Below are positions 5,366 to 62,513 of a stretch of DNA of 64,000 bases, in pieces. The DNA comes from Eledone cirrhosa (Eukaryota), in NCBI GenBank assembly GCA_964016885.1, contig OZ024742.1, forward strand, positions 274,784,001 through 274,848,000. The letters are read 5' to 3'. Both the position numbers and the translations under genes were made by a program. How positions within the stretch are numbered: the first letter of the stretch is position 1; every line of letters starts with the position of its first letter. Below the pieces are notes generated by a model. The model was not told where the DNA came from. It did not search any database and saw only the letters and a program-made list of their open reading frames with translations.

Positions 5366-8165
5366 ATGTTGGCCGTTTATAACGGGATCTTGGATGCATG
5401 CTGGGATTGTGTGGAATTAGTGGATCGGAGAGGAGGGTGTAAAAGCCTCGGAAACCTGCTCAGACGTTTCCAAATGTCTGACAGGTGTCGAATGGATTAT
5501 ACGAATGTGCCAATGAGGACATGGGCAAACTGCATCGAGTCACCCAGTTTGTATATAGATAGGGTATTCTGTAGGGAAACAGATAAGGCTAGCGTAGGTT
5601 TTACACAATATAAAATGGTCGACTACACGCACCACAAATTTGTGATATGTGAAGTCAACATGGATAGACTTCATAGGCAAGTGCTCGATTACTGGAAGCT
5701 GAAGGCGTCCTTCTCGTCGCACAAAGCTTAGAGACCGGATAAGTGAATTAGTTAAGCGTGCGTTGACGGGTGCGATCGTCAACAACAGGTGGTGGTTTAC
5801 CCTGAAAAGGGCAATTAGAGTAGAATCGATAAGGTTTAACAAAGGACTAGAGATAGAGGAAAATATAGTAGAGGGAGAGCTAGTTAGAAAGCTAGAAGAG
5901 GCATTTAGGACAGGCATCGCAACTGACGTGCTTGCGGCGAGATTGGCACTCGACCAATTTTTCAAGGCAAAGCACGAAGGCTGTGTTGTCAGAGCTAGAG
6001 CATGTGCTCTGAGACACGAGGGGACAAAAACCGTCCGAGTCCGATGGGCCCGGGGGTGGAGGCGCGACGTGGCAACAAAGCAACATTTAATCTTTGCCTG
6101 GCCAAAATGGGCGCATTTTACTCGAACCCGAGCAGATGTGTAAGGCTGTTCAGCAGCACTTTCTTCAACTGATTGGGAGCGGCGGCTGGCCGGATCGGAG
6201 TATATACTTCAGTGTACACCTCGAGGGATTGCCGCAGCTATCGACGACCGCAGCGCAGTATTGCGGAAAGCCGGTAACAGCAGGTGAAATACGGGAAGCG
6301 ATGTCTGATAGCACGAAGGGTAAATCGCTAGTTTTGGATGGTCTGCCTTACGAACTTTATGCGTACATGAGAGACTTGTTCGGCGATCAGTTAGCAGATG
6401 TCTACAGCAATTGGCAGCAGAACGGGAGCATTCCACCTGGGAGCGGTGGCGCTGTTGAGAATAGAACTGAACAAGGGGTACGTTATAGACAAATTCAAGC
6501 CCATTACTCTGTTAAACGCAGATTTCAAGATTTTAGCCAAGGTGTTAGCAACGAGATTGGCGCTTGTCGTCAGGGATCTGGGGGGGGGGGAGTGCAGACA
6601 TGCGCCATACCAGACAGATCCATCCACGAAAACCACCACCTCATGCGGTACATCATAGAGTGGGTGGTTAAGAAACCTGGTACGGGTGGGGTCCAGATCA
6701 ACTTGGATCAAACTAAGGCATTTGCTAGGCTCGATTATCGGTATTTGTCTGCGATCCTCGATGCGGCCGGTTTCAGGAGCTGGATGGCCTGCGATGCACA
6801 ACGACATCTGCTCACTATGAGGACAAACACTGTCACAGCCGTTCAGCATGATGCACTCGGCCCGGCTGGGTTTCCCCCTCTCATCGCTCTTCTACGTATT
6901 GGCCATCAAACCGTTACTTCAAAGATTGGAAGTGTCCCACGCAACTGGCATGTAGGAGAGCCGTATCGGCTTGCGCTGACGACTTCACAGTTGTGGTGTC
7001 AAGCACCGGGCATGTCCAGATGCTCGGCACCGCTCTCAATGAATATGAAGCAGTGAGAGGTGCAAAGTTAGACCAGGAATATTCGGTGGCTTGTAGCTCG
7101 GTACCAGTAGAGGCAAGTACCTGCCCTCTAAGAGCGTCGTTGGACGTCTAGTTCGCTCCGGACCTCCAGATGGAGAAAGACTGGAGCGAGGTGACAAGCA
7201 GCGTCGCCTCCCTCATCCAGTCTGACAGCGGTTTAAACGTTGAGGCGAATAACGCTGGCCCTCTTACAAAAAATATGAAAACCAACACGACTTAGATAGT
7301 ATCTCCAACAGTAGCACCAACAATAATGATAACACCAACAACAGCAGCAACAACGACAAGATAAACAACAACAGTGAAAATTCAAATATAAAAAATGAGA
7401 ACACCAATAACAGCAGCACCAACGACAACAACATTCGAAATACAATTATGAAATAAAATGACAACATCAATAACAGCAGCAACAACGACAACAGCAACAA
7501 CACCAACAAGAACAACGACAACAACAACGACAATACCAACAGCACCAACGACAACAATAAAAACAATTTCGCTGCCGCAGCAGCCAAGGAAAGTCCATGC
7601 TTCAACATGGATTTAACAGACTAGGTCCATATGCTGTTAACACCCTTGTGTGGAGGGCTGGCCATGCTGTGGCTGATGATGCGCAGACACGCGCTCAGGA
7701 TACGACATCTCCACCTCTTCCTCGACGGTGATCAGGTGTGGTCGCTGTTTCCTAGACGCGTCTTTCCCCAGCTCGTCTCCTCGAGGGAGCTGCAGTCCTG
7801 TGTCAAGGGAAGACCGAGAGGGGGCGCTTAGAGACGGGAATGTCTTCAGGCACTCACAGCCCTCGACCAGTCGGGCAATGTGATCGGTGGAAACTCCACC
7901 TTGGCCTTCTATAGAGGATTAGTGGAGCGGAAGAGCGACGACGTACTTGGGGAAACTCTAGGCGTCGACGAAAATCAACTAGCCAATCTATTCGGAAAAA
8001 ATTTCGGGCCGGGCCTATGGACAATTTCAAGAAATCAATGGCCAGGCAGTGCCACCGGGGAACTTTGCCAGTTCGGGATAAACTCTACAGGCATAAAAGT
8101 GCCGTCAGCCAGTCCTGTTCGAAATGCGCGCAGGGCGACGAAACAATAATAACAACAGCCACAAT
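5366..8165 (+). mobile_element. L1/Tx1-clade LINE ORF2 copy A (endonuclease tail, RT, C-terminal zinc finger), frameshifted pseudogene, with a CAA-rich insert at about 7262-7610
   Basis: IDRV...THHK, DGLPYELY, FKPITLLNADFKILAKVLA, DQTKAF; HRGTLPVRDKL...CSKC...DET; paralogous to 12290-14160. Confidence 0.88.
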
Positions 8166-9640
8166 AACAGTACAACAGCAACAGTATCAACAAAAACAAC
8201 AACAACAACAACAGTACCAACGAAAACATCAACAGTGACATCAATACTTGTAACAACGATCTCAGCTCCTCTAGCAAGACCAATAGCGGCAGCAATAGTG
8301 GTGCCGCTGAAAAAGGGACTACTGTTTTTCCAGGTGTGGCCCGAAATACCGAAACAGTGTTAGTCACAGAGGAGGAGATGGTGACAAGAAACGCCAATAG
8401 AGTTTCCCTGAAACCTCCACCCGAGTTCTTCAAGGACCAGCAGCTACGGACGGTGAATTACCGCACGGTAAGCAAAATGTCACATCGGGTGGAGAGAGCC
8501 ACGGAGGCTCAAATCCAAAGGGCCTCGGGGTGCGTTAAGTCGCGCAAAACCCACATCACCCGAGACAGAAAGTATGCCACAGTGGACATACTTTTCACCA
8601 AGACGCGAAGTCTCACTCTTTGAAAACCCTAAAGAGCGAGGAAATAGTCTTGGTACCCTGCTACTGCAAGCAGAAAATTGTGAGGGTCAAATTGACCCAG
8701 GGCCCACTCGACGTGCCCATACCTTAACTGGCGGCGTCTGTCCTTGCTGGAATCGAGGACAGGACGACCATGCAGCAAGTAGAGAAAATAGGGAGAGAGA
8801 ACTGGTCAGGTATAAAAATGCAAATGCTTATAAAAACTGACGAGGAGTGTATCGACGCTATCCCCGATATCATAGACCTCGAGGAAGGACTCGACTCCCT
8901 ATAAGCGTGAAGGAAGACGGCCAAAATGTTATCTCTGTGGGTGAAAGGGTCACCTCAGGGCCTTTTTCCCGCAGAAGACAGCGAAGAAGAAGCCCCCCCC
9001 CCCCTCCTTCCAATGCCTGGTCTGCTGATACCAAGAGCAAGGCAGGCAACAAACGCAGAAGACCCTTCCACGGTGAGTAGGAGGGCAACGTCAGTGGCAC
9101 CCGTACCAAGGCCACGGACAACTAAAGCAGCAGCATCAGTGGCGCCAACACCAGTAGCTGTATTTACAGTAGCTGCACCAGCAACAAAATCGCCGGAGAG
9201 GGCTCCACTCCTACCACCAACAGACGTGGAGCACATACCCCTCCCAGATGCCACGGAATCCGACATGGAGTGTGAGGCGGGAGTGAAGGGGCAAACGTTC
9301 TGCCACAAAAAAGAAGAAACCCCTGAGCTTCACCCTACAAAGGCAAAGGCAAACAAAAAGGGGTAAAGGTTGTAAGGCAACTCGCAGCAACGCCACCACC
9401 ATCGCTACCAACAACCACCACACTACCACCTCCGGCATCACTACAAACATCAACATCGCAAACGCAAGACAAACATACCCAACAGCAGCAACAAGACGAC
9501 AGCAACAAATCTAAACCACCCCAAAAGCATTACACAGCCATAAACTTGGCAAATAAAGAACTCTTAGAACATATAAAGCAGCACACAGACATTACGGACA
9601 AATATACTCCACCCCACCAACACCAAAACCCACTTCGTAT
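8165..9640 (+). mobile_element. Tx1-type ORF1 (gag-like) copy, decayed
   Basis: Paralogous to 10270-11680 (NRVSLKPPP(E/D)FFKDQQLR; knuckle-like CYLCG.KGHLR; ANKELL.HIKQHTDI). Confidence 0.8.
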
Positions 9641-9899
9641 CGTCCTGTACTGTTCTGTGCCGTCTCTAATGTTTTTCTTCATGTCAGCCCTTGTGGCCAA
9701 TAAAGAAACCATTATTATTATTATTATCGGTCTGTTCGGACGCTTTTTGCTCGCTGCAGGTAATCGCTTTATTTGCCTGTTAAAATTATTTGTTGTTAAA
9801 TATTTCTTGTTGTGTAAGGGATATATGCCTTTAGACTTTGCCCTGTGATGGGGAAAGTATAAAATTTGTTACTTTTGGCCCAAATATTTGAAAATTTTA

Positions 9900-12800
9900 C
9901 TTAAAAAAAAAATTGTTTTAAAAGGAAAAAAAAACATGGCTGAGCCACGCAAAGCAATACGTCTGCTGTCGTCTGACAATGGCGTAAAAGTTGAGAGGAG
10001 GGTTACAAACATGGCTACAACAGACACCACAACAAACAACGTGAACAAAGACAACACTGAGAACACTAATTTCGAAAAAATTACCACACAAACGACAACA
10101 ATGACAGCGTCAACCAAAATACAGACAACAGAAAAAATTGACAACATATGCAACAACGATATTACCACCACTAACAAGAAAATAAACAACAACACCAACA
10201 GCAACAATACAAATTGCACCGAAAACACCACAACGGTGGCACCAAAAAAAAACCCACTACAACAGGGATAACAGCAACAACACCAACAACACCGTTTGTA
10301 GCAGTAGCAACATCAACAACATCAACAACAAGACCAGTAGCGGCAGCAATAAAGGTGCCGCTGAAAAAGGGGCCACTTCTTTCGCAGGTTTGGCCCGAAA
10401 TATAAAAACAGTGCTAGTCACGGAGGAGTAGATGGCAGTCGAAAGAGCCATGGTGACGAGGAACGACAACAGAGTTTCCCTGAAACCTCCACCCGATTTC
10501 TTCAAAGACCAGCAACTGCGCATGGTGACTTACCGCACCGTAAGCGAAATGTCGCATCGGATGCGGAGAGCCACAGAAGCTCAAATCCAAAAGGCATTGG
10601 TTGCGTCTGGGCGCGCAAAACCCACATCACTCGAAGCAAAAAGTACGCCACATAGACGTACTTTTCCCCACCCCCCAAGAGGCGAAGTCTCACTCTTTGG
10701 AAACCCTAAAGAGTGGGGAAATAGTCTTAGTGCCCTCCTACTCCGGGCAGAAAATTGTGAGGGTCAAAGTGACCCAGGTCCCGCCCGACGTGCCCATACT
10801 TTGGCTGGCCAGGTCTGTACTGGCTGGAATCGAGGAGAAGACCACTATACTGCAAATACAGAGTTTGGGAAGAGAGAACTGGTCAGGAATAGGCATGCAA
10901 ATGCTAATACAAACTGACCAGGAGTGCATCGAAGCCACCCCAGACCTCATAGGCCTCGAAGAAGGGCTCCAACTCCCTATAAGCGTGGAAGAAAGGCTCA
11001 CAAAGTGCTATCTCTGTGGGCAGAAGGGTCACCTCAGGGCCCTTCCCGTAGAAGACACCCAAGAAGAGGGCCCCCTTCCTTCCGACGCTTGATCTGCTGC
11101 TACCAAGAGTAGGCATGAAACAGAGGCAGAAGACCATTCCATGGTGCGTAGGATGTCATACCAAAGCCACGGAAAACTAAAGCAGTGGCGGAAACACCAA
11201 CAGTCGCAGTAGATACACCGGCGGTACAATCGCCGGAGCGGGCTCCACTACCACCATCAACAGCAGTGGAGCTCATGCCCCTCCCGCACGCCGCTGGCTC
11301 CGACATGGAGTGTGAGACGGGAAGGAGTGGCAAACGGTCTGCCACAAAGAAAAAGAAAAAAGAAAAAAACCCTTAAATTCACCCTCCAAAAGCGAAGGCA
11401 GATAAAGATGGGTAAAGGCAGCAACACCACTACCATCAACATCACCACCACAAGCATCACCACCACCAACAACCACACCACCACCAGCATCACCAAAAAC
11501 ACCAACATCGCAAACACAACCAAAACACATACACCTAACAGCAACAACAAGAAAACAGCAACAGAATCGCCCCACCTCACAAAAAATACACAGCCATAAA
11601 CATGGCAAATAAAGAACTCCTACAACACATAAAGCAGCACACAGACATCAGAGAAAAAAACTACTACACCCCAGCAACACCAAGAACGCTCCCGACAAAC
11701 ATAAGCATCATAGAAATCTCAATAGACCATTACAAACTTTTAAAGCAAAAATTCCCCAACGCAGTTGGAGACTTCAGAGGGTCGGTTACCAAGAGGATAT
11801 ACACCGACATCCTTGACCAGCCAAAGGGACGGTAAGTGATCTTTTCTCACTTACCTCGTTTCTCATCCAACATGGCCAAACTTAGAATAGGCAGTATAAA
11901 TGTACGTGGCCTGGGGTCATCTTGGAAGCAGGACCACCTGCTCAACGACCTCAGGTCACTTAACATAGATGTGGTGGCCATCAGCGAGGACAGAATCTCC
12001 GAAGAATGAGCCTTCGCACCGATTTTCGGCGCCTACGATGTATACGCATCTCCCAGCCGTCCGGGATCGGGGGGAGGGGTTGCCGTGCTTTTTCGGAGAG
12101 GCTTGGATCTCGCCATGCGGGCCATCTTCCTGGACTCAGAAGGTAAATCGGTGGTGCTGGACGTGACTGGCAGCGAAGGCAATGCTTTCAGGCTAGTAGC
12201 CGTCTACGCCCCAGCAGGGGCAGGATGGCCAGATTTCTTCAGACGTCTAGAGACCTTTCTTGGAACGTCCCGCTCTTTAGTTTTAGTTGGCGACTGGAAC
12301 GGTACCTTAGATGCACGCTGGGATTATGTGGGACTAGCAGCCAGGGCAGGAGGGTGTAAAAGACTCAACAAACTGCTCAGACCTTTTGAACTGTCTGACA
12401 GGTATAGACTAGTTTATCCTAATGTCATTCAGATCGTATTTAGATAGGGTGTTCTGTAGGGAAAAAGATAAGGCTAGTGTAGGTTGTCCACAATTTAACA
12501 ATTTAACACGGAACGCAAATTTGTGATCTGTGAAGTTGACTTAGATAGACGCCATAGGCAAGGCCTGGCTACTGGAAGCTGAACCCGTCGTTCGCGGCGC
12601 GCAAAGTTTACAGAGACCAGATTAGCGAATTAGTTAAGCATGCGTTGACGGGTGCGATCGTTAACAACAGGTGGGGGTTTACCCTGAAAAGGGCTATTAG
12701 AGTAGAATCGATAAGGTTTAGCAAAGGAGTAGTGATAGAGGAAAATAGAGTAGGAGTGTTAGTTAGAAAGCTAGAAGAGGCGTTTAGGACAGGCATCGCA

Positions 12801-14160
12801 CCGACGTGCTTGCGGCGAGATTGGCACTCGACCAATTCTTCAACGCAAAGCATGAAGGCTACGTTGTCAGAGCTAGAGCGCATGCTCTAAGACACGAGGG
12901 GACGAAAGCCGTTCAATGGGCCCGGGTGGTGGAGGCGCGACGTGGGAACAGGTCCAATATTCGGTCTTTGCCTGATCAAAAGAAGCGCATGCTGCTCGCA
13001 CCCGAAAAGATGTGTGCGGCTCTTCAACAGCACTTTGCTCGATTGTTCGGGAGCGGCCACGCGCCGGATCGGAGTATGGACTTCGGTGCATACCTCAACG
13101 CACTGCCGCGGCTCTCGATGACCGCAGTGCAGTGTTGCGAAAAGCCGATAGCAGCAGGTGAAATACGGGAAGCGATATCATACTGCACGAGGGGTTAAAG
13201 ACCAGGTTTTAATTGTCTGCCCTACGACATTTGTGCGTATATGCCAGACTTGTTCGGCGACCTCTTGGCAGATGTCTACTGCAAGTAGCAGCAGAACGGG
13301 AGCATTCTCAGTTTTGTGAGCCGGCGAGCGGTGGCGCTGCTGGGAAAAGACCAGAACAAAAGGGACGTTATTGACAACTTCAGGCCCATAACTCTTCTTT
13401 AGGCAAAGTTTAACATTTTGGCCAAGGTGTTAGCTAAGAGATTGGCGCTTGTCGTCAGTGACCTGGTGGGAGAGGCGCATACATGCGCCATCCCGGACAG
13501 ATCCATCCATGACAACCTCCATCTCATGCGATACATCATAGATAGGGCGGTTAAGGAACCTGGCACGGGTGGGGCCCTGATCAACTTGGATCAATCTAAA
13601 GCATTTGATAGGGTCGACCATCGGTACATGGCTGCGGACCTCGAGGCGGCCGGTTTCGGGCCTGTTTTTAGGGGATGGATCGCTGCGATGCACAGCGACA
13701 CATGCTCAATTGTGAGGGTGAATGGTCACCTGTCGCAGCCTTTCAGCATCATGCGCTCGGTCCGCGAGGGTTGCCCCCTTTCGTCCCTCTTGTACGTACT
13801 GGCCCTAGAGCCGTTACTGCACAAACTGGAGACCACGAGGGGGGTCCCACGCGAATTGGGATGCGGGAGATCCGTATCAGCTTACTCTGATGACGTGACC
13901 GTGGTGGTGTCGAGCACTAAAACACGTCCAGATGCTGGGCACCGCTCTCAAGGAATACGAAGCGGTGACAGGAGCAAAGATAAACCAGGTAAAGTCGGTG
14001 GGCTTGCAACTCGGCACCTGGAGAGGCAAGTCCATGCCGTTCGACAGCGTCGTTGGACGGACGGACTGGTTAAATTGCTCGGGGTTTGGTTCAGACCGGA
14101 CCTCCAGATGTAGAAAAACTGGAACGAGGTGACGAGCAAGGTGGTTTCCTCCTTTGTTGC
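9900..14160 (+). mobile_element. L1/Tx1-clade LINE copy B: ORF1 (about 9936-11835) and ORF2 APE-RT (from 11872), 3'-truncated pseudogene
   Basis: ORF1 zinc knuckle KCYLCGQKGHLR; ORF2 starts MAKLRIGSINVRGL; LVGDWN; DQSKAFDRVDH; VREGCPLS; SAYSDD; many stops and frameshifts. Confidence 0.92.
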
Positions 14161-23732: not shown

Positions 23733-24811
23733 GTGAAGCAGGGGAACTTGGTCAAGGAGGAAGTGCAGGTGACAAGTCAAAGAAGTCGACACGAATCTTT
23801 CTCAGACTTTAACACTCTTATGGATGGCCTCTGCTTCTTCCATAACATGCCTGGACTGTTTGACGTTATTGGGGTGCCGTTTGTGCCCATGGAGTGGAGG
23901 CTATTTATAGACAGCTCCATCACAAGTTTGAAGGCTGTCCTCCTCCACAATGGAAACAAGTTACCGACACTGCCCCTAGCTCATTCAGTCTGCTGAACGA
24001 AGATTACTACAGTGTGAAAGTCCTCTTGGAAACTCTGCAATACAACCAGTACCATTGGGAAATCATTGGAGACTTCAAGATGGTGGCTTTCCTGATTTGA
24101 CTCCAAGGAGGCTTTATCAAATTCCAATGCTTCCTCTGCCTTTGGGACAGCAGAGCCACCTCTAACCACTACAAAAGAAAGAACTGGGAGCAGCGAACAG
24201 AATTTGCAGTTGGGACCCAGAACGTCTTGTGGGAGCCACTGGTTGATACCAGGATTGTGCTCATGCCGCCACTGCACATTAAGTTGGGGTGGATGAAGCA
24301 GTTTGTGAAGGCTCTCAACCAAGAATCAGCCGCTTTTAAGTACCTTCTTGAGTTCTTCCCCAAGTTATCTGAGGCCAAAATCAAAGGTGGAATTTTTGTT
24401 GGACCTCAGATAAAGAAGGTGTTTGAGTCTACCGCGTTCTCCAATAAGCTCAATAGGATTGAGAGAACAGCATGGAACTGTTTCAGGGCAGTTATTAAGG
24501 GCTTCCTGGGCAACTACAGAGATGAAAACTACCAGCAACTGGTGCAGGATCTGATAAAGGCTTTTGGCGCCATGGGATGCATGATGTCGCTTAAACTCCA
24601 TATGCTGGACGCTCACCTGGAAAAATTCAAGGACAATATGGGCGCCTATTCAGAAGAACAAGGCGAACGATTCCACCAAGGTGTGAAAGAGATAGAGCGG
24701 AGGTACCAGGTCCACTACAATGAAAAAATGATGGGGGACTATATCTGGGGTCTAGTGCGGGAATGCGACCTGGACTACGAACGCAAATCCAGGAAATCCA
24801 GTGATTTCTGA
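23733..24811 (+). pseudogene. Chapaev3-type transposase C-terminal half (stops and frameshifts)
   Basis: EWRLFIDSS..SLKAVLLHNGN, IGDFKMV, CFLCLWDSRA, PPLHIKLG.MKQFVKAL, SLKLHML, YSEEQGERFHQ, MGDYIW. Confidence 0.85.
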
Positions 24812-25859: not shown

Positions 25860-28813
25860 AATGAGCAAAATCTACAACCTGGACTATCAACAAACCGAAC
25901 CTCAATACGTCCGAAACTTGTATACAAGACCTCACAACAACAGGGGAAATACCATTAGATATAATAATACCATTGAAAAAACATTCGAGAAAAATCATTT
26001 TTTAGACCAAGGTTACAAGAGCCACGACACCCGGTGGCACAAACCGATTTTGAAAAACCGAAAATAATCAACCTTTCAAATACAAACCTCTCAGCCCAAC
26101 AAGTAAACATTCTCTCCAAAGGACTGAAATTCACACCAACACCACAATACTCTAACCCCAATGAGATAAATGACCATATCTCACACTTCTGTAGAAAATT
26201 ACGTCTCACAGAGGAATTCTTTGACAAGGAGAATAACGACGAATCAATTGTACGGAATAAAAGCAGCTACAACCCAACAAAAGGTAGAAACAGAGTTCTG
26301 GACAAATTTTGTGACCACATAGCTACTTTCCCATACCATGAACTACCGCAACCTAAACCCAAACCCAACACGAGTCGAAGGGAATGGGAGATTATCCATG
26401 AACTAAAAACTAATACGGACATTATAATTAAGGAAGCGGACAAGGGAAGTAGTGTCGTCATTATGGCGGCTGAAAAATATAAAAATTCTATGTTCTCTCT
26501 CTTACAAAATACTAATTACTATGAAAGAGTAAAAAACTACCAGCAATCAAAAACAATGACCAGATTAAACACACTGATTTATCGATACCAGAAAGACCTA
26601 ACTAAAAAGGAAGGCGATTATTTAACACATTTTGAATACAAAACCAGCAAACTTTAAGGACTTCCGAAGATCCACAAGTGTAAAATAATTAACGATGCCT
26701 GTAAACAATCCACCTCAGCCTGCGTGAACACACAATACCCCACACACCTTAAATTTAGACCAATTGTAGCGGGCCCACAATGTGAAACACACAGACTGAG
26801 CAACTTTATAGAGATACTATTAAAACCAATTCTCAAACACATACCAAGCCTTGTAAGAGACGATCTGGACCTCTTAAACCACCTCCCCAAACATGTCAAC
26901 AACGACACTATTATTGTGTCTTTCGATGTAGTGAATCTCTACACAACGATCCCACACCAATACGGACTAGAAGCAATAGGATTCTGGCTAGAGAAATATC
27001 CCAATGAGATACCTGGCAGAATAGAAAAAAGCTTCATCACCGAGGGATTAAAATTCATCTTACAGAACAACTTTTTTGATTTCGCTGGCAGTACTTACAA
27101 GCAAATATCGGGGACTGCGATGGGTACAAAAGCCGCTCCAACTTATGCCAACTTAGTCATGGCATACTTAGAAGTCCAGATATATGAACAGTCCAAATCA
27201 AAATACGGATTAAACTTGCACAAATATTTATCAGAGAATTGGAAACGCTACTTGGATGATTGTCTCATTATTTGGTCCCACACACTCGACCAACCGAAGG
27301 ACTTCAAAAACTTAATAAACGGCATCAACAACCACATCCAATTCACAATGGAATAGAGCCAAGATCAACTCCCATTGCTGGATATCTTAATCTTTAAAAA
27401 AAAACAAAAAAAACACAAATATTGAAACTGACATACACTACAAACCAACAGATTCCAAACAATACCAGCTATTCACCTCCAACCATCCAAAGCACACGAA
27501 GACGAACATTCCTTTTAACCTAGTAAGAAGAATTTGCACAATTGTCTCCAATTATGAAACGCGAAATAAAAGACTTCAAGAATTAAAGGAAATTCTACTC
27601 GAAAGAGAGTACCCACTATTACTAATAAATAATTGAATAGAAAGGGCTAAAACAATAGGCATTGATGAATTACGAAAACAGAAACAAATTCAAGGTACGT
27701 CCAATATTCTATCATATATCTCAACACACCAGCCAAGAAATGCGGTAGCTTACAACACTATTCACAAGAACATCCCACTACTAAAACAAAACCCAAGAAT
27801 GAAAAAAGCCCTTGAAACACACAAAATAATCAAGAGCAAAAGACAACCGAAATCACTGAAAACATTACTCACCAATGCCAAATTACCTACCACAAATCCA
27901 CAACCAACTGCCAAAATATGTGGTCGCTCTAATTGTGGAACCTGCACTCACCTCATTGAAGGCAACACGTATACATTTAAATCAGGACAACATTTTGTTG
28001 TAAAAAATCACTTCACTTGCTCATCAAAAAATCTACTTTATGCCATTAAATGTAAAGGATGCAATGAAGATTATATAGGACAAACTAAACTCACACTCAG
28101 AAACAGAATGACAGTTCATCGCCAACAATTACGAGATCCAACCACGAGACAGATACCACTAAGCGCACATCTAGACATATGCACAAGTATTAAGACACCC
28201 AAACTCCAAGTCTTCCCATAATACCTTTGCGCTAACAATACAACAGAACAAATACGAATAAATAAGGAAAATATGTTTAATCAAATATATAGACCAGCAT
28301 TAAATATGGTTTAATATACATTATGTCAACACCATAACATGCTAACCATCCAAACAGACACATACACACACACATAACACCTGCTATTTTAGAAAATAAA
28401 AACCCGAACTAAATAAACCTTAACATACGTTTGCGCTGACAATACAACAGAATAAATACGAATAAGTAAGGAAAATATGTTCATTCAGAAATATTCCTAC
28501 TAAAGGAATCATTTTCCTACACACACACACACACACAATATATATATATATATTCTCTTCATCTTAACATGCTAACCATACTCACACACACATAACACCC
28601 ATACACACACATAACAACCCCCACCCCCACACACACAACTCCCTTCCCCATTTCTACTAATAGAATCACTTTCCTACACACATATGTACACACACACACA
28701 AAATATATATATTCTCTCCATCTTAACATACTCCCACACACACCCACACACATAACACCCATATACACACACACAACTCCCTCCCTCATTTCTACTAATA
28801 GAATCATCTTCCA

Positions 28814-31215: not shown

Positions 31216-32006
<791 letters not shown>

Positions 32007-33021
32007 GACTGACCGACGGTCAAAAATACAGATACAATATAGACACAAACACATATATATAGTTTATCAAAGGTAAATATATGTAAGGTAAACCCCCAGA
32101 TAAACTGTAAAACTAGAAACGTAGTCTATAGCATAAGATGTACAGAGGGTACTTGCAGAAACATGACAACATACATAGGCGAGACAGCTCGTAGCATAGG
32201 AGAAAGGATAGACCAACACTGGGGGGAACTAAAAGGACGAAAAAACGGTTCAGTACTATACGAACATGCCAGACAACAACACGACGGTAACATAGACAAC
32301 ATAGAAATTAGAATAATATCTAAACATAGAAATGACCCAGCAGATAGGCATATCAGAGAGGCCAGTGAAATAGAACTTAGAAGGCCAAGGCTAAACAGAA
32401 AAAAATGAATGGAATAACAGCAACACCCAAACAAACAACACTGACCTAAGAGAAGTATAAATAAATAAATAAATAAATAGATAAATAAATAAATACATAC
32501 ACAAGCACAATAACAACAAACACATATAAACACACACTAGTAAAGATTGAATACATTAACCAATACACAGTCTCCCAATCACGAACACACATCAAACAAA
32601 ACACTATACACACACGCAAACGCATGCGCAAAGAAAAAAAAAGAAAAAAGAAAAATAAATATAGAAACAGACTAAATAAAGATGGCGTAGAAAATACAAT
32701 GCAACGGGAGGAAACAATAGCACCACTAGCGATGTTGCAGATGCGCAACGAAAGAACTTTGATAAACTATATATATGTGTTTGTGTCTATATTGTATCTG
32801 TATTTTTGACAGTTGGTCAGTCAATGGCAACATTGAGGACCGAATAAATTAAATTACGGATATAAAAGACACAGAAGCGAAAAGCGAAAACCAACCAAAC
32901 AGTGAGTGTTCTGTTATTAATTCTGGCAATATTACACAAATATGACCCTCCCCAAGTATAAAAATATTTGTTTCGACACACCATTTCATATCAAAAACCT
33001 CGCAAAACGAATTCATCGCCG

Positions 33022-33087
<66 letters not shown>

Positions 33088-33089
<2 letters not shown>

Positions 33090-33130
33090 GATGTACTAGT
33101 TTCAAGCTTATTAGCTATCGTCAGCATCGT
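33088..33130 (-). ncRNA. Type I hammerhead ribozyme (canonical core)
   Basis: Exact inverse of 33553-33595. Confidence 0.85.
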
Positions 33131-33552
33131 ATACCTTCCTGCCAGATGGTTGAACGTCTGAAAGTATATATTTTCCTTACGCATATTAACGGCTGAGCAG
33201 CCTAATTTGCATATCGAGTGAGTTCAGTCGGCCGGGCACACCGAAAACGATAAATGGAATAGAATGAAACGACATTTCATTTCTCACTCTTAGTACGGCA
33301 CTTACTTAAATGTAAGTATGTATGTATACGTACATACATATATGTATACAGACGTACAGTAGTATGTATATATATATATACATACATGCACACATATATA
33401 TATATATATATATGCACGTAACGGTTTACCGAACATTTATTATAATGCTCGGTTTGTTTGTTTGTAAACAAACAAACAGCCCGAATTACGCCGTTAATAT
33501 GCATAAGGAAAGTATATACTTTCAGACGTTCAACCATCTGGCAGGAAGGTAT

Positions 33553-33595
33553 ACGATGCTGACGATAGCTAATAAGCTTGAAACTAGTACATCGT
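33553..33595 (+). ncRNA. Type I hammerhead ribozyme (canonical core) with extended stem I
   Basis: acgaug-CUGACGA-u-agcu(aaua)agcu-u-GAAA-c(ua)g-UA-caucgu; extended cagga/uccug and guucaac/guugaac. Confidence 0.88.
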
Positions 33596-34921
33596 TCCTG
33601 TGTCAGTGTTGAACAAAAAGGTGACGTGGTTGCCTAAACACTGTACGGCGTAGTTAGGGCTGTTTGTTTGTTTACAAACAAACAAACCGATCATTATAAT
33701 AAATGTTCGGTAAACCGATACCTGCATATATATGTGTGCATGTATGTATATATATATATATATATACTACTGTACGTCTGTATACATATATGTATGTACG
33801 TATACATACATACTTACATTATATATATATATATATATATATACATACATACTTACATTATATATATATTTATATATATGGAGAGAGTGAGAGAAAGAGA
33901 GACATATATAGTATGTTAAACTATCAATGCATATCTGTTAGAACACGAAAAGTGTGAAACACAGAATGTTCACTTTTCGTGTTCTAACATATATGCCTAG
34001 CTTCTTTAAAAATTTTTCGGGGATAGCCGTGGTGGTGATCGTATGTCATTGGCTAATTTTCAACCAATCAGAGTACCTCTCTCTATATCTCTTCCACTGT
34101 TACTTACGCCTGTTTCTCTCTATCTGTTCCGTCTCTATTTATATCTCTTACTCTTTCGCTTTGCACTCCTCCCCTTCAATACCATCTCTCCCCCTCTCTA
34201 TATATTTGTTACTCTATCGCTGCACGCTCCTCTCCTTCAATATATCAATTACACACGCTTTACACTCCTTTATCCCCAGCGCCCCTATATATACACCCCC
34301 CTCTCCCGCATCTATATTTTAATGTACCGTTGCACCGTGAATATATGTGTCTATATATATATACATATATATTGTATATACACATTCATGTATGTGTATA
34401 CACATTCATGTATGTATATACACTGGTTTTATGTGTGTATTGTAAATTTGTACTGTTAAAACACGAAACTAACATTCGATTGACACTTTGATTACCTGTA
34501 CAGGCAATAGTTATTAGAATGCTGTTGAAGTGTGTATATATTTTTGGGGGACATCCTGTATATACACACATTATATATAATACAATAAACAGATAAATAC
34601 ACACATATATATATGAGCTTATTTAATTATAAATATTGTGAATTTTTAACTCAGTTCAATTATATATATAAATGGCTTCTACAGGACTAGAACTGTTTCA
34701 TTCGAAAGAAATCATCATAATATTGAGAGGGGGGGACTAGATAAAATATTTCAAATCAAATGTGTATAAGTTATAAGTTAAAATGTATAAATAGAGACGA
34801 TAGTGGAGGTATATCTGTTTAGTGGAACAGTAGACGATAGAATTAAATACAGACGAGAATCTCCCTTTAATGAAACAGCAGACGATAGAATTAAGGCAAT
34901 TTAAATTTTAAGCATTTGCAT

Positions 34922-34975
34922 TTTTGCCTTTCATCGTTACGGGGTCGATAAAATAAAGTACCAGTAATACACTGT
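34922..34975 (+). mobile_element. SINE internal fragment
   Basis: TTTGCCTTTCATCGTTACGGGGTCGATAAAATAAAGTACCAGTAATACACTG. Confidence 0.8.
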
Positions 34976-37542: not shown

Positions 37543-37616
37543 CCTAGTACATTACTGGTACTTTATTTTATCGACCCCGTAAGGATGAGAGGCAAAGTTA
37601 ACCTATGCATATTGAA
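37464..37616. repeat. 37-bp perfect inverted repeat spanning a SINE/flank junction; SINE fragment at 37538-37604 (-)
   Basis: TTCAATATGCATAGGTTAACTTTGCCTCTCATCCTTA and its exact complement at 37580-37616. Confidence 0.88.
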
Positions 37617-37665
37617 TATGTATTGATAGTTTAACATACTATATATGTCTCTCTTTCTCTCTTTC

Positions 37666-37807
<142 letters not shown>

Positions 37808-53348: not shown

Positions 53349-56300
53349 CAATTTAAAACTTAGTGAAATATTTGAAAAATCTCCTCAAGAAAGGTTAAAA
53401 GTTTAACGGGCAAAAAATAAATAAAAGTAATAATACAAGAAATGTATAAAAAATAAAAATAAAGAAATGTAGTAAGGGGATGTCTGTAAATGTAAGTATA
53501 TGCATATACATATGTACATATGTATATGTGTGTGTATGTACAACTGCATGTGTATAGTGAAAAAATATGTGTAAGTACATACATGAGGGCAAACATATTA
53601 GTGTATGTGTGACCACAAATACATATATATATATATATATGTTGAAAATAGAAATTGTAAGATAATGGAGTTAGCGTACATACAGACTCAGGGATTAAGG
53701 GCTTAAATATATACCCATACAAGGATGAAAGGACGCACGCGTATAGACATACACACACGCGCAACCATACATGTATGTGATATATACAGGGAAGGGAGTG
53801 TATAAATTCAACGCAGTGTCATATATAATATGATGAATAAATGAAATAATATATAAGATAAGAATAAAAAACTAAGGCAAAGAGAAAGTAAGTGGGAGGG
53901 GTTGTAATATATAAAGTAACACTAAAAAAATAAATAAAAAGTAGAAAACATGCATATACGCGAACAAGCTCATACACACATACATATAAATATATATACA
54001 AACAGACAAAAACACGTGCACAAAAGCATATATACACAGACACGCATACATACATACATATACATGCATACATACACATACACATACACATACATACATG
54101 CACATCTATTCACACGCACACACGTGACCACATATATATATAAGTATATATATATAAAAGCACACACATACATGCACGCACATACAGGAACATACATGCA
54201 TAAAAGCACACTCATACATGCACACATACAGGCACACACACGAATACGTTCGTCACACATACACACATACGTATACATACATATATAAAAAAACAACCGT
54301 ATGAACAAATGGGTACAGCATATACGCAAGTATACATACATAAAAACGGCTGAGGGACAACGTGATGTGTGTTACTGAAAGAAAAGGGGGAAGTAAAATA
54401 AATGTAAATAATGTATAATTGTTAAGATATAACGTTAATGAATCAAATATCAGGGTGGGGTCCACTAGTGTATGTAAAGTAAAAATAAAAGATAAGTAAA
54501 ACTGAATGGGAAGTCTATAAAGAAGGTAAGTTAAGGAAAGTGAAGAACAAGAGTTTATGCAGGATAAGTGTCTGAAAGTGAGTTAAGTTTATATGAGCCG
54601 GAAAGGAAGTGTGATTTCATGTGTGGGCAACTGGTGAAAATTTCTGTTTTTGCATAAAAAATTTTCACTTATGCAGAGTGCGCATCTTCTTGTTCCTCTT
54701 GCGTATTCTTTAGCTTGGTTCAAAATTGACCGATGTAATTTACATTGGATACCTTGAATCTTCAAATCCCATATTCTGCTAGCCAGAGCTGTTGTAAATC
54801 TTTTGTCGGAAAGATGCGACGTTTGATTAATAACGCGTTTTGAATTTGTCTTGTGTCATACCCACATATCGTTCGCTGGTGGCTGGTGGGTTGTTGCTAG
54901 TGGTTGTCACTTTGGCCTCATATACAATGGCTTTGGTGTTGCATTTACTTTGTAATGGGCATTCCCTTTTGTCTCTACAGGAGCAATTTTGATATTTTCT
55001 GGGTGTTTTGTTATTAATGATATAAGATTAAATAGATGGACCGCAGGAGTTACTTATTTTGACATAGTTTCTATTGAAGATCTTATAGTATCTATGTTTT
55101 CTAGGGAAATGTTTATCTAATAGCTCTAGGAATTTTTTGCGTACATTAGTTTTAATTGCTAAAGAGTAGGAGGGGGGGTGAACCAGATTATTTTTCATTT
55201 CCTATTATTATGTTTAAAGGAGTTAGTATTGTTGCGTATGTACTTAATCGGTTCGCTAAATCCACTATTTTGAAGGGCTTTATTATAGTAGGGGTTGCCT
55301 TATTGAAAATTTCTTCTGAGGAAGAGAGGGTAGACATCCTACTTCTAATATTAGGGATGAGATTTTTAAATACTATAGGAGGATGGCAAGAGCCTTTATT
55401 TATCTATTTTAAATTTTCATTTGGTTTAGGGTACGGTTTATAAGAAGCAGTAGGCAGATCTAGGTTTATATCTAGAAAATTAACATTAGAATGGTTTGTG
55501 TCAATGGTAATTTTAAGATTAAAACTAGCGAAGGTTTTTATTAAGTCTTTCCTGAATCTGTCTAAGTTATGGCCTATATTGGTATGGGAAAGTGTTAGAC
55601 CATCATCACGATAAAGCCCAATGGTATAGTTAGGGAATTTCTCTTTAAGTGTGTCGAGGAGGAATAGGCCGACTAAATCACACACGTCAGCATTGTCAAA
55701 AGAACCCATTGAGACATCGAAGGGTTTCTTTGGGATAGATTTTTTTACCCAAGTATAATTATTAGTAAACAGTAAAGTATTTCTAGCATGCAAAATGACA
55801 TTCTCTTCAATATCAGAAATATTAATAAACTTTTTAGCAAAATTTAATGCTTTCGTTAAAAGAGGGTGAGTAATAGACGGGTAGAAGTCTACAATGTCAA
55901 ATTAGGTGAATCTAGAACTATTTTTATCTTTAATATTTTTAAACCAATGTACTTCAGAAGTGCTATTTATCCATTGGAGTTATTCTGACTTCTAATATGT
56001 TTGTTTATGTTATTTAATATATTTTTGCAAGGCGGATTTCAGTCTTAGCAGGGTTGATTAATCTACAACTGGCACGATTATTAAAATCAGATTTGTGATC
56101 TTTAAGAGTGATATAGGGATTACGTTTTGCAAGTTTTTCTGTTCTATTGTCTATTTTTAAAAAACTAGCTAATTCTTTAGCGTCCTTATTAATAGTATTA
56201 TAGGTGTTTATATTAGCTATTTGGTATTTAGAGGTGATTTTATCTATTAAGAGTTGGTCTTGTAAATTATTATTAACTTCGTATAAGGTTTTAGTTTTAT

Positions 56301-59175: not shown

Positions 59176-59734
59176 CATCAAATAATAAATGCTATTCGTC
59201 GATAGGAACCTCACAAATTTAACGCACCGAAACATACGAGAAGGGCGAGAGAAATAAATAAAAACAAATGGAAACATAAAACAAAACAAAACAAAACCGA
59301 CCACCAATTCACTGCCAAATAATTTGAATCGGATTAGACAGAGAAAAAAAAATAGAGAATATAAGTATGCCGAAAGCCACTGACTCGCAACTTCGGTCAA
59401 GAAGGTCATTGGGGCGTCACTCACAGAGGCTGATACAGCAGCCAACTTGACACTCGTTATAGGCAGCACCAACATTTGTCTCTACCATTAAGAAGAGGAA
59501 GGCAGCGACAACAACAGGGCAATAACAACGACCCCACATCTTCTGTAAAAGAAGGCACTCGACCCTCAGCAGTTTCAACTAGCACCACCATTAACAAGAG
59601 GAAGGCAACGACAACAACAGTGACATTAACAACAACAACACATATGTGTATACATCACCATCTTACCAGCAATCACTACCACTACCATTAACAAGGCGAA
59701 GCCAACTCCAGCATCAGGGACAACAACAACGCAT

Positions 59735-62513
59735 ATGTTTTCAGGATTGAATGACTCACCTTCAGTCATCAGGTTCTATGAGAAACAGCTAACATACTGG
59801 CATGTGTGCGTGCTGAACTCTGGGTCTTTCCGCTGGGATACGCCCTGTGTTCTTACCCCTACCCTTTTTTTTAGTACATTCATCCATCCATTCATTCATT
59901 TGTTAACATTCTATCTCCTTGTGTGTCCCCCTCCACGCACCCGCTTCTTTTCTCTCTTGTCTTCTGACGCCTCCATCTCTGATGTAGGTGAGCAATGTGG
60001 CCCTCTTTTCAGCACTTTCCCTTCCACCACACACGCCAGCAACTCACCCCTGATGCCACTCGGTGCCCCAGTCCCTGGCCCCACGCCCCATCCTCCATCC
60101 CCTCAAACCGACACCTGCAGCACTTGCAGCACCACGAACAGGCGGAAGAGGGGCCGCAACTGTTCGGGGTGCGGCTGCTTCCACCACCTCACCTCCGTTG
60201 GCTTGACGCATCGAGCTTCCATTCCTCTCCGATTGTGGAGATGCAGAAACTATATCTTCCCCTCTTCTGCCCAGCCACGGCCGTCTAGCACATCACCAGA
60301 TGAGACAGCGAGCTTGCCTGACGCCCAAGCCTCGCTGGTTAACATCGCTCGGCTGATGTGGCTCCAGAAGATCACACTCAGGATCCCGAGAGCTTCCCGG
60401 GTGCCGGTTGCCGATGCTCTCGCTTCCACAATTGAGAGCGCCCTGGACTCCAAATGAGCCAGCGACTGGGAGCGACTCTTTTATTTCGCCCCACTCGCCC
60501 TCCCCAGCTCTGGCACTGAACGAGGCGGCCGGTCGACAGCAGCCTTCGTCAAGGCCAGTGTTTCGTCCTTTGGGCAAGTGCCCATTCCAACCGTACCTAG
60601 GGACGCCCCACACCCCACCCTCGGGTACTCCCAATCCTCCATCCCTGAGGCCAGCGCCAAGCGTTTGTGTGACCGCGTAAATGCGAAATTAATCATGGGT
60701 GATGTCTCGGCCGCAGCCAGAGTGTTTGCCTCAGAGCACACTGAGCCATCTGCTGATCTCAGACGCATACCCAACCCGATCCCCACTTGCTGCTTTGTGG
60801 CTACTTGTCGTATGGAGAACCGAGCCTCCTTGCTGCTTATATGGTCATACCTTCGGCCACTGGGGTCCAACAGGGCGACCCTTTGGCACCCTTCCTGTTT
60901 GCTCTTGGTAGAGACCACATCGCCCGGAGTTTCACGGCCGCTCTCAATGTTTGGTATCTGGATGATGCTATCTTGGGCGGTCCCGTACAGACTGTCTGCC
61001 ATGACCTACAATCTGTGGTTCCTGCTCTGGCGAAAATCGGACTCCAGGTCAACTCTGCCAAGTCGCTGGTGGTGAATGTCAGCCACGATGCTGAGAGCTT
61101 TGCAGCCTCAGTCTCGGACGTGCGGTTCATTCTGCACCAGGTACAGGTGACCTCCAAAGAGGATGTCCTCATCCTCGGGTCACCAATCCACCCGCCGACC
61201 ATCCGCTCCACCATCAGCTCCAGGCTTCAACAACTCCAGACTCTCACGAGCCGACTGGGCCTGATCGACGGCCACCCAGCACTTTTTCTGTTGAGAAACT
61301 GCTTCGCCATACCGAAGCTCCTCTATACGCTTCGCAGCGCTCCGTTCTACACCCACCCATCTCTCCTCGCTGACCTCGATACTTGTATCCGAGAAGATAC
61401 GCAATGTCAAGTTTGACGACATTGGATGCAACAGGCCACTTTACCTGTCAGGTATGGCGGCCTTGGCTTCCGGTCCCCGATCTCATTGGCTTTGCCTGCG
61501 TTTCTTTCGTCGGTAACCTCATGCCATGTCCTCGTGAACAGGGTTCTCCAGAACACAATATAACCCTCTGTGTTCAGAGAACGTGAGGCCGCCTGTGAGA
61601 CGTGGGACCGACTGGGACTTATCCCAGTAGGTGTCTCTCCTCCTTCTACCCTGCTGATGTCAAGTCCCCCCAAAGAACTTGGGATGCCATCCAGTGCAGC
61701 CTGACTTTAAACAGGCTCATGCGCCAGCTCGACAAGCACCGACTTTCCTGTTTTCGTGCGGCCTACAAGCCACAAATTGGGGCATGGCTCTATGCACTGC
61801 CCTCCTTCTCCACTGGCACGCAGCTAGACAGCAATAGTCTGACCATTGGCGTCTCCTTGAGGCTCGGCCTCCAGATCTGCGGGCCACACCAATGTCGCTG
61901 CGGATCCACCGTAAACTCTTTCGGCCTCCACCCGCTTTTCTTTCGCCACAGTGCCGACCGCCTTCCACGTCATGCTGCCCTCAAAGAGGTCATAAAGCAT
62001 GGCTTGGACGTTGCAGGCTTCCCTTCCCAGCTCGAGCCGGTGGGGCTGGACAGAGGGGAAGGTAAAAGGCCTGATGGCATGACCATCTTCCCGTTCCGCG
62101 GTGGCAAACCCCTCGTCTGGGATGCCACTTGCACCGATACTTTCTGCAGCCGCAGCCTGGTGCAGTCTGCGACTAACCGAGGTTCTGCTGCTTGTCGGGT
62201 TGAGGAGGCCAAACTCCTCAAATATCGGTCGGTCTCCGACAGGTTTGTGGTTGTATCTATGACAGTGGAGACTTCTGGTGTCCTCGGCCCTAGGGCTACC
62301 TCCCTACTCACCACCATAGGCGCTGAGCTGGCCAGCCGCAGGTGTGAGCCCCGCGAGTTGGAGTGGCTTTTCTTGCGCGTCTCTCCTTGCCGTCCTCCGG
62401 GAATACGCCTTCTCCATTCCGTCCGCCGGGGCTGTGGGGAGACAAGCCGATCATATTACGAATTCCGTCGAATAGTCTTAAATACGATTGTTAGAAGTGA
62501 TGAATTAAAATAA
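59735..62513 (+). mobile_element. CRE-clade non-LTR retrotransposon (RT + zinc knuckle + restriction-like endonuclease), pseudogene
   Basis: GVQQGDPLAPFLFAL, WYLDD, LP.R.GGLG; CRCG......LH; KRPDG...VWDATC; VETSG.LG. Confidence 0.85.

What the first reader, a model, noticed from the sequence alone, without database searches (positions are those of the whole stretch)
33088..33820. Two inverted, circularly permuted copies of a hammerhead unit: footprint of a circular RNA template
Seen: the interleaved A-B-A'-B' inverted repeats resolve into two copies. Copy 1 (33088-33494) has order HHR-motif-B. Inverted copy 2 (33490-33820), read in the same orientation, has order B-linker-HHR. The two orders agree only if the ~456-nt unit is circular or tandem. 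The copies join on a 5-nt microhomology (GCCGT). The HHR has a canonical CUGACGA/GAAA/GUA core, palindromic stem III (ACUAGU) and a long extended stem I (cagga/uccug, guucaac/guugaac). Both outer ends abut (TA)n. Inference: PLE-type insertion with a template switch.
Basis: partly seen in the sequence, partly recalled or inferred. Interest (0 to 1): 0.85.

Follow-up and report, generated by a model that had tools for sequence, protein, structure and literature searches.

The report
Two-armed hammerhead repeat, Penelope-type insertion
This is one short copy of an abundant non-coding repeat carrying a predicted self-cutting RNA, lying as two head-to-head arms in a TA tract that were likely pasted by a Penelope-type jumping-gene enzyme; it is a known kind of element and does not show that the RNA template was a circle.

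Summary
A left arm (33088-33494, minus strand, order B-C-A) and a right arm (33490-33820, plus strand, A-D-B) join on a 5-nt overlap and imply a 456-nt unit. The hammerhead is a canonical metazoan type I motif. All 11 listed family-variable positions in it fall in loops or keep pairing. The family is abundant: about 0.2% of reads in two RAD runs lie on a 267-nt piece. The circle is not shown. Neither arm (407 and 331 nt) completes one turn, and a linear uncleaved 632-nt RNA explains both. Inverted 5'-truncated arms in AT tracts are the published Penelope-like element (PLE) footprint. A purified PLE enzyme cuts and extends both strands, starts internally and mostly uses uncleaved RNA. A PLE remnant next door (31649-33022) has the same layout. 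One oddity: the left arm starts 6 nt past the cut site, an end found in only about 1 in 7,000 reads. Earlier notes of this scan describe longer two-armed arrays of similar units elsewhere in this genome; those are better tests. Verdict: new member of a known kind, low to moderate interest.

The parts
33023..33087 (.). (TA)n tract, left target
   Evidence: sequence
33088..33494 (-). Left arm, 407 nt, sense order B-C-A; sense 3' end 6 nt past the predicted cut site
33088..33155 (-). Hammerhead copy 1: core and 6-bp helix I intact, 3' side of extended stem missing
33194..33308 (-). Segment C, present once at this locus, high-copy in the species; holds octamer ATGCAAAT at 33205-33212
33309..33494 (-). 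Segment B, left copy: hairpin core plus microsatellite-rich part
33490..33494 (.). 5-nt overlap GCCGT joining the two arms head to head
33490..33820 (+). Right arm, 331 nt, sense order A-D-B, runs through the predicted cut site
33528..33614 (+). Complete type I hammerhead with extended stem I; predicted cut after 33589
   Evidence: family variation
33596..33644 (+). Segment D (3' side of extended stem I and linker), present once here; follows A in family reads
33645..33820 (+). Segment B, right copy
33821..33880 (.). Right target: AT run, repeat of the arm's last 16 nt (33844-33859), AT run
   Evidence: sequence
31649..33022 (+). Neighbouring PLE remnant: C-terminal GIY-YIG-like frame 32043-32408, 3' region to 33022, inverted arm 31859-32072, short sense copy 31649-31796; a separate element with the same architecture

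Best explanation
This is a dispersed, about 1%-decayed copy of an abundant non-coding type I hammerhead repeat, and its two head-to-head arms were likely written by a borrowed Penelope-like reverse transcriptase/endonuclease that would cut both strands of a TA tract and copy, from each DNA end, an RNA that most likely was a linear uncleaved transcript of more than one unit. Shown: the arms, their order, the TA tracts, the 5-nt overlap, the family's abundance and the family order C-A-D-B. Inferred: each DNA end primed at an internal RNA site (right end at the end of B, left end 6 nt past the cut site); both copies ran through the uncut or rejoined ribozyme site; both stopped early; the two cDNAs annealed on GCCGT. 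The two-ended PLE mechanism I put at about 0.85. Within it a linear multimer is only slightly ahead of a circle, and this locus cannot separate them.
For: Both outer ends are sense 3' ends on (TA)n and the inner join is 5'-to-5'. That is the published PLE layout: partial tandem plus an adjacent inverted 5'-truncated copy, with microsatellite bias (PMC8557442 passages; PMC3846280 passages). Purified anole PLE protein cuts and extends both strands of AT-rich DNA, starts at two internal RNA sites without homology, and uses unprocessed RNA as the dominant substrate (PMC11167929 parts 1-2 of 4). The neighbour 31649-33022 has a GIY-YIG-like frame (atlas score 0.96; BLASTP E 5e-4 to a Pfam-confirmed GIY-YIG frame in the window), an inverted arm and a 56-59-nt tail. 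Other copies are joined head to head at other breakpoints: 13 of 15 listed joints run from left-arm to right-arm sequence. In one search, 10 of 14 listed joints are strand switches, and 6 remain after dropping 4 at restriction ends. In one run 3 contigs carry (AT)n joined at 33250, 59 nt from the right arm's end point in unit coordinates, as a two-start-site tail would give. A 1-bp helix III and a U-U helix II base go with weak monomer cleavage in axolotl (6% and 22% in 1 h; PMC7229834 passages), so uncut transcripts are expected. No arm exceeds one unit.
Against: The left arm's start is not a recurrent family end. About 15,700 reads per RAD run continue from A into D there, and depth on the adjoining AT bin is about 1/7,600 and 1/6,200 of the next bin. 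The two arm starts are 225 nt apart, not 30-60. No sequence link was found between this unit and the neighbouring PLE, so the mobilising partner is unidentified. The joints have only 21-28 letters on the short side, and the 33250 end rests on 3 contigs of one run. The B-to-C link is seen only at this locus; both read-laying runs skipped the microsatellite-rich part. Retrozyme RNAs are often mostly circular in coral, mussel and axolotl (PMC7229834), which favours the circle rival. No target-site duplication can be read inside (TA)n.
Confidence: 0.5

Rival explanations
1. Same two-ended PLE insertion, but the template was a ligated circular monomer of about 456 nt.
For: Both arms cross the cut site (the left one by 6 nt), and the orders agree on a ring. 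The reconstructed ring folds into serial hairpins, z = -8.2 against 100 shuffles, with the hammerhead formed, and a 6-bp hairpin spans the B/C link (p 0.8-0.9). Circles are shown for other animal retrozymes, and this route is proposed in PMC7229834 and PMC4209133.
Against: No arm passes one full turn. No private change is shared by the two arms among listed rows. All 3 listed right-arm private changes fall in its 80-nt B core (p about 0.04, post hoc), a weak hint that the two B copies came from different template units. The fold score is inflated by palindromic microsatellites and would be the same for a tandem. Ribozyme mutants do not change PLE insertion in vitro.
Confidence: 0.32
2. The template was a unit-length linear RNA (a cleaved monomer held together by helix I, or a C-to-B transcript), and the enzyme jumped across its ends.
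For: The left arm has only 6 templated bases before the cut site, exactly the 3' strand of helix I. The right arm ends where C begins in the left arm. The family order C-A-D-B is read-supported but B-to-C is not.
Against: No extra or lost bases at the cut site in either arm. A hairpin straddles the B/C link, suggesting it evolved as continuous RNA. No pile of loose ends at the start of C is among those listed (lists cut, and the junction itself skipped).
Confidence: 0.1
3. DNA-level fold-back or break repair rearranged an existing tandem copy, with no reverse transcription at this locus.
For: The 5-nt overlap fits microhomology repair, and AT tracts are fragile (general knowledge).
Against: Both outer ends are sense 3' ends on bare (TA)n. 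The same layout occurs in the unrelated neighbour and probably in other family copies. No third copy or array remnant lies in the window.
Confidence: 0.06
4. Assembly or read fold-back artefact.
For: No listed contig bridges 33490-33494 with 31 or more letters on each side (only 30 of about 9,300 pieces shown).
Against: The arms differ at 8 substitutions and 2 indels, and each carries changes private against the family. The arms are permuted rather than mirror-symmetric. Run X1 holds 0.76 of the sampled words and has depth 23 on the AT-to-A junction, though it may be the source sample.
Confidence: 0.02

Closest known systems
Metazoan non-LTR retrozymes (Cervera and de la Pena 2020, PMC7229834; Li, Clavereau and Pollet 2026, bioRxiv 10.64898/2026.07.22.740005)
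   Same: Non-coding unit (456 nt; reported ranges 150-450 bp and 51-972 bp), GC 37%, one type I hammerhead per unit, high copy, hammerhead free to fold in the predicted ring, PLEs present in the same DNA.
   Different: This locus holds no two consecutive full units. It is a head-to-head pair of sub-unit arms. Expression, cleavage and circles are untested. No homology to a PLE pLTR was found in the window.
Canonical metazoan type I hammerheads (PMC4209133; axolotl HHR_Amex1 and HHR_Amex2, PMC7229834)
   Same: Helix I 6 bp, helix II 4 bp, helix III one pair with a palindromic tetraloop (as Amex1), U-U at the base of helix II (as Amex2).
   Different: Combines the two weakening features; lacks the G10.1-C11.1 pair; activity untested.
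EN+ Penelope-like element insertions (PMC8557442, PMC3846280; PAc biochemistry PMC11167929)
   Same: Inverted 5'-truncated arm, microhomology join, AT-rich target, internal 3' ends, hammerhead in the repeated part.
   Different: No RT or endonuclease frame. The arm starts are 225 nt apart and the left start is not a recurrent family end, whereas PLE tails are 30-40 nt in print and 56-59 nt in the neighbour.

Membership tests
Type I hammerhead ribozyme | Core CUGANGA, GAAA, UH triplet in type I order with helices I-III | tested here: met
   core rows vary only at position 7 among listed variants
Type I hammerhead ribozyme | Structure kept under variation | tested here: met
   11 of 11 listed variable positions in 33528-33614 lie in loops or keep pairing. 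Pair 33556/33592 is read as A-U, G-U and U-G, with 5' U at 0.34 and 3' G at 0.29-0.30, moving together across read subsets. Frequencies, not phased reads; tables were cut by 22 and 5 rows.
Type I hammerhead ribozyme | Self-cleavage after GUA | not testable with these tools
   needs an in vitro assay
Non-LTR retrozyme | Short non-coding, low-GC unit with type I hammerhead | tested here: met
   456 nt, GC 0.37, longest ATG frame 77 aa across tandem copies
Non-LTR retrozyme | High copy number | tested here: met
   27,136 of 12,467,656 and 24,556 of 12,785,554 RAD reads laid on 267 nt; reduced-representation data, so no copy number
Non-LTR retrozyme | At least two consecutive tandem units with complete hammerheads at the locus (Li et al. 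'active' definition) | tested here: not met
   arms of 407 and 331 nt in opposite orientation; this copy is at most a dispersed derivative
Non-LTR retrozyme | The family occurs as head-to-tail tandem arrays | tested here: inconclusive
   C-A, A-D and D-B links read-supported; B-C link skipped as repeat; arrays of 464-470-nt units appear only in unchecked earlier notes and were not matched by sequence (one search found nothing)
Non-LTR retrozyme | Expressed as linear and circular RNA | not testable with these tools
   no RNA run was laid; needs RNA data or a northern blot
Autonomous Penelope-like element | RT plus GIY-YIG open reading frame | tested here: not met
   no such frame in 33088-33820
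PLE-type insertion footprint | Inverted 5'-truncated arm and AT-microsatellite target | tested here: met
PLE-type insertion footprint | Two fixed RT start sites a short tail apart | tested here: inconclusive
   left start is not recurrent; right end lies 59 nt from an AT-joined end seen in 3 contigs of one run
PLE-type insertion footprint | Homology to the pLTR of an autonomous PLE | tested here: inconclusive
   none within the 64-kb window; no whole genome held

The most novel reading that the evidence does not exclude
Both ends of one cut in a TA tract primed on the same ligated 456-nt RNA circle, one at the family's regular start site and one 6 nt past the ribozyme's religated junction, so this locus records a PLE enzyme reading across the ligation scar of a retrozyme circle from two directions.
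Probability: 0.3. Interest if true: 0.6.

Novelty: new member of a known kind. Interest (0 to 1): 0.3.

Why it matters
That animal retrozymes are moved by PLE enzymes through circular RNA is proposed but not shown in the papers read (PMC7229834, PMC4209133, bioRxiv 10.64898/2026.07.22.740005). This copy supports the PLE half of that idea: a ribozyme repeat with the inverted-arm, AT-target footprint sits beside a PLE remnant with the same footprint. It cannot test the circle half, because no arm passes one turn. Longer, younger arrays noted elsewhere in this genome can. The off-site start 6 nt past the cut site is a small data point on how loosely PLE enzymes choose internal starts.

Tried and rejected
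No whole genome is held, so copy number, family ends and tandem arrays could not be counted directly. Rfam: 0 hits at gathering score; 135 weak matches at E<=10, mostly miRNA models on AT repeats, none a hammerhead. Exact hammerhead patterns: 0 matches in metagenome contigs and 0 in viral contigs. The B-to-C link in other copies stayed untested because both read-laying runs skipped the microsatellite-rich part. Read ends at 33204/33207 and 33276, the loose ends before 33204 and 4 strand-switch joints there were set aside as restriction ends and ligation chimeras: the window has AATT at 33204 and the family's 33273 variant makes a second. MFE cofolding of two hammerhead copies did not give the dimeric helix III form; energy models do not capture the core, so this is uninformative. 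The MFE also mispairs CUG of the core with helix III. A deletion origin for the left arm's end was considered by eye; no fitting microhomology to B was seen. A versus B divergence does not differ (Fisher p 0.71). Look-alike search of earlier notes by sequence and by nearness returned nothing. Pfam found nothing for the neighbour's 121-aa frame at E<=0.1. Literature: 'retrozyme' plus 'head-to-head' gave 0 papers; 'hammerhead ribozyme', 'cephalopod', 'Penelope' gave one work; one search was uninformative; the newt satellite 2 promoter paper was not found. Supplements were not read and could hold inverted retrozyme examples.

Full report
Setting. The window is AT-rich animal-type DNA, rich in microsatellites and broken retroelement frames. 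Two frames score as RT and GIY-YIG in Pfam. No whole genome is held. The label 'cephalopod' comes only from earlier scan notes and was not tested.

Anatomy. In ribozyme sense there are four segments: A (106 nt, ending 6 nt past the cut site), D (49), B (176 or 186; a hairpin core plus a microsatellite-rich part) and C (115). The left arm lies on the minus strand at 33088-33494 and reads B-C-A. The right arm lies on the plus strand at 33490-33820 and reads A-D-B. The unit A-D-B-C is 456 nt. The arms share exactly 5 nt, GCCGT; 1.3% of all possible head-to-head joins of this unit give that much overlap. Both outer ends are sense 3' ends on (TA)n, and the inner join is 5' to 5'. The arms differ at 2 of 106 bases in A and 6 of 174 in B, plus two AT-run indels. 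Against family reads, the left arm has private changes at 33171, 33180 and 33273, and the right arm at 33653, 33656 and probably 33691. None of the listed changes is shared. This argues against a fold-back artefact and puts decay near 1% per arm.

The ribozyme. The motif has a 6-bp helix I, CUGACGA, a 4-bp helix II with U-U at its base, GAAA, a one-pair helix III with the palindromic loop CUAG, and a cut after A33589. It matches the description of canonical metazoan type I hammerheads (PMC4209133 passages). It joins the weak helix III of axolotl Amex1 with the U-U of Amex2; those cleave 6% and 22% in an hour as monomers and better as dimers (PMC7229834 passages). My scan finds only these 2 sites in the window against 0.02 per shuffle. 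Family variation supports the fold: 11 of 11 listed variable positions in 33528-33614 sit in loops or keep pairing, and pair 33556/33592 appears as A-U, G-U and U-G with matching frequencies. The variant tables were cut (22 and 5 rows unseen), and reads were not phased. Cleavage is untested.

The family. Twenty runs hold part of the stretch, three of them half or more. I laid 6 of the 23 listed runs. About 0.2% of reads in two RAD runs lie on a 267-nt piece. Reads and contigs support the order C-A-D-B in other copies (loose ends and pieces). The B-to-C link could not be seen because the tool skips the microsatellite-rich part. It is therefore shown only at this locus, where a 6-bp hairpin straddles it. 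Other copies seem to be inverted at other breakpoints: 13 of 15 listed joints go from left-arm to right-arm sequence, but with only 21-28 letters on the short side. In one search, 6 strand-switch joints remain after dropping 4 at restriction ends; one has 71 letters on the short side and one is seen in 47 reads.

Arm starts. The left start is not a family end. About 15,700 reads per run continue from A into D there, and AT-joined depth is about 1 in 6,200-7,600. The right end lies 59 nt, in unit coordinates, from a site (33250) where 3 contigs of run X4 carry (AT)n. So the right end is plausibly a regular start site and the left is an off-site start. The repeat of the last 16 nt at 33844-33859 may be an abortive first start or plain slippage.

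Mechanism. The inverted 5'-truncated arm, partial tandems and microsatellite bias are standard for PLEs (PMC8557442 and PMC3846280 passages). A purified anole PLE protein cuts and extends both strands of AT-rich DNA, starts internally at two sites without homology, and uses unprocessed RNA; ribozyme mutants insert normally (PMC11167929 parts 1-2 of 4). The remnant at 31649-33022 has a GIY-YIG-like frame and the same layout. It shares no sequence with the unit, so the mobilising partner is unknown. The inferred path is: cut both strands, prime from each end, copy through the uncut or rejoined ribozyme site, stop early, anneal on GCCGT.

Circle or not. The permuted orders require that B precede C on some template, that is, a tandem, a circle or a jump. 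Neither arm completes a turn, and a linear B-C-A-D-B RNA of 632 nt suffices. For a circle: such RNAs are abundant for other animal retrozymes and the route is proposed (PMC7229834 parts 2 and 4 of 6; PMC4209133), and the ring folds well (z -8.2), though a tandem would fold alike and microsatellite palindromes inflate the score. Against it: the in vitro PLE result, the weak ribozyme, and a slight clustering of right-arm changes in B (p about 0.04, post hoc). My split is linear multimer 0.5, circle 0.32, unit-length RNA with a jump 0.1, DNA rearrangement 0.06, artefact 0.02.

What is known. Non-LTR retrozymes are described, and a 2026 preprint (parts 1-3 of 5 read; supplements closed) derives them from PLE pLTRs and counts solo derivatives. 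This locus fails that paper's two-tandem-unit definition, so I file it as a dispersed copy that works like a retrozyme, with family membership likely but not shown. A search for 'retrozyme' with 'head-to-head' found 0 papers, so the two-armed form for retrozymes may be unpublished, though it is the expected PLE footprint. Earlier notes of this scan describe many longer two-armed arrays of 310-470-nt units in this genome. They are unchecked, and I could not match them by sequence.

Verdict. Real, correctly described, a new member of a known kind. The circular-template claim is possible but not shown here. Interest 0.3.

Noticed in passing
window 31649-33022: PLE remnant with a C-terminal GIY-YIG-like frame (32043-32408), an inverted arm (31859-32072), a further short sense copy (31649-31796) forming a 358-nt near-perfect palindrome around an AT run, and a 56-59-nt tail at the sense end. 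No canonical hammerhead was found in it by my scan; a degenerate helix II plus GAAA may lie near 32726-32753.
   Followed up: partly
window 33859-33934 and 37616-37689: 76-nt inverted repeat (92%) with AT runs outside both copies, suggesting a third, 3.8-kb element with inverted ends inserted right next to the finding; the AT tract looks like an insertion hot spot.
   Followed up: partly
window 33205-33212, 33513-33519, 33540-33544, 33244-33247: In sense order the unit has an octamer ATGCAAAT, a TATA-like run, GGCAG, and a T4 run just past the 33250 site. The octamer occurs 10 times in the window, so alone it is weak.
   Followed up: partly
window 25977-28221: Broken PLE with RT (Pfam RVT_1) and C-terminal GIY-YIG (Pfam) and a cysteine-rich linker, Neptune-like by recall; a candidate but untested partner.
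   Followed up: partly
window 34923-34974 and 13 other places: A 52-nt repeat present 14 times in the window at 83-100% identity, probably part of a SINE-like family.
   Followed up: no
window 33916-34009: 94-nt imperfect palindrome (76% self-complementary) overlapping the end of the 76-nt inverted repeat.
   Followed up: no
joint 33137 to 33112: Sixteen reads in two runs show another copy with a 26-nt duplication of the hammerhead core region separated by an AT run, like the re-start pattern at the right end of this locus.
   Followed up: no
window 5540-14113, 24101-24811, 55404-55901, 59630-62513: Further broken mobile-element frames: LINE-like RT and endonuclease pieces, a transposase-like frame, another PLE-like RT piece (no Pfam hit) and a retroelement-like region; labels by eye.
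   Followed up: no
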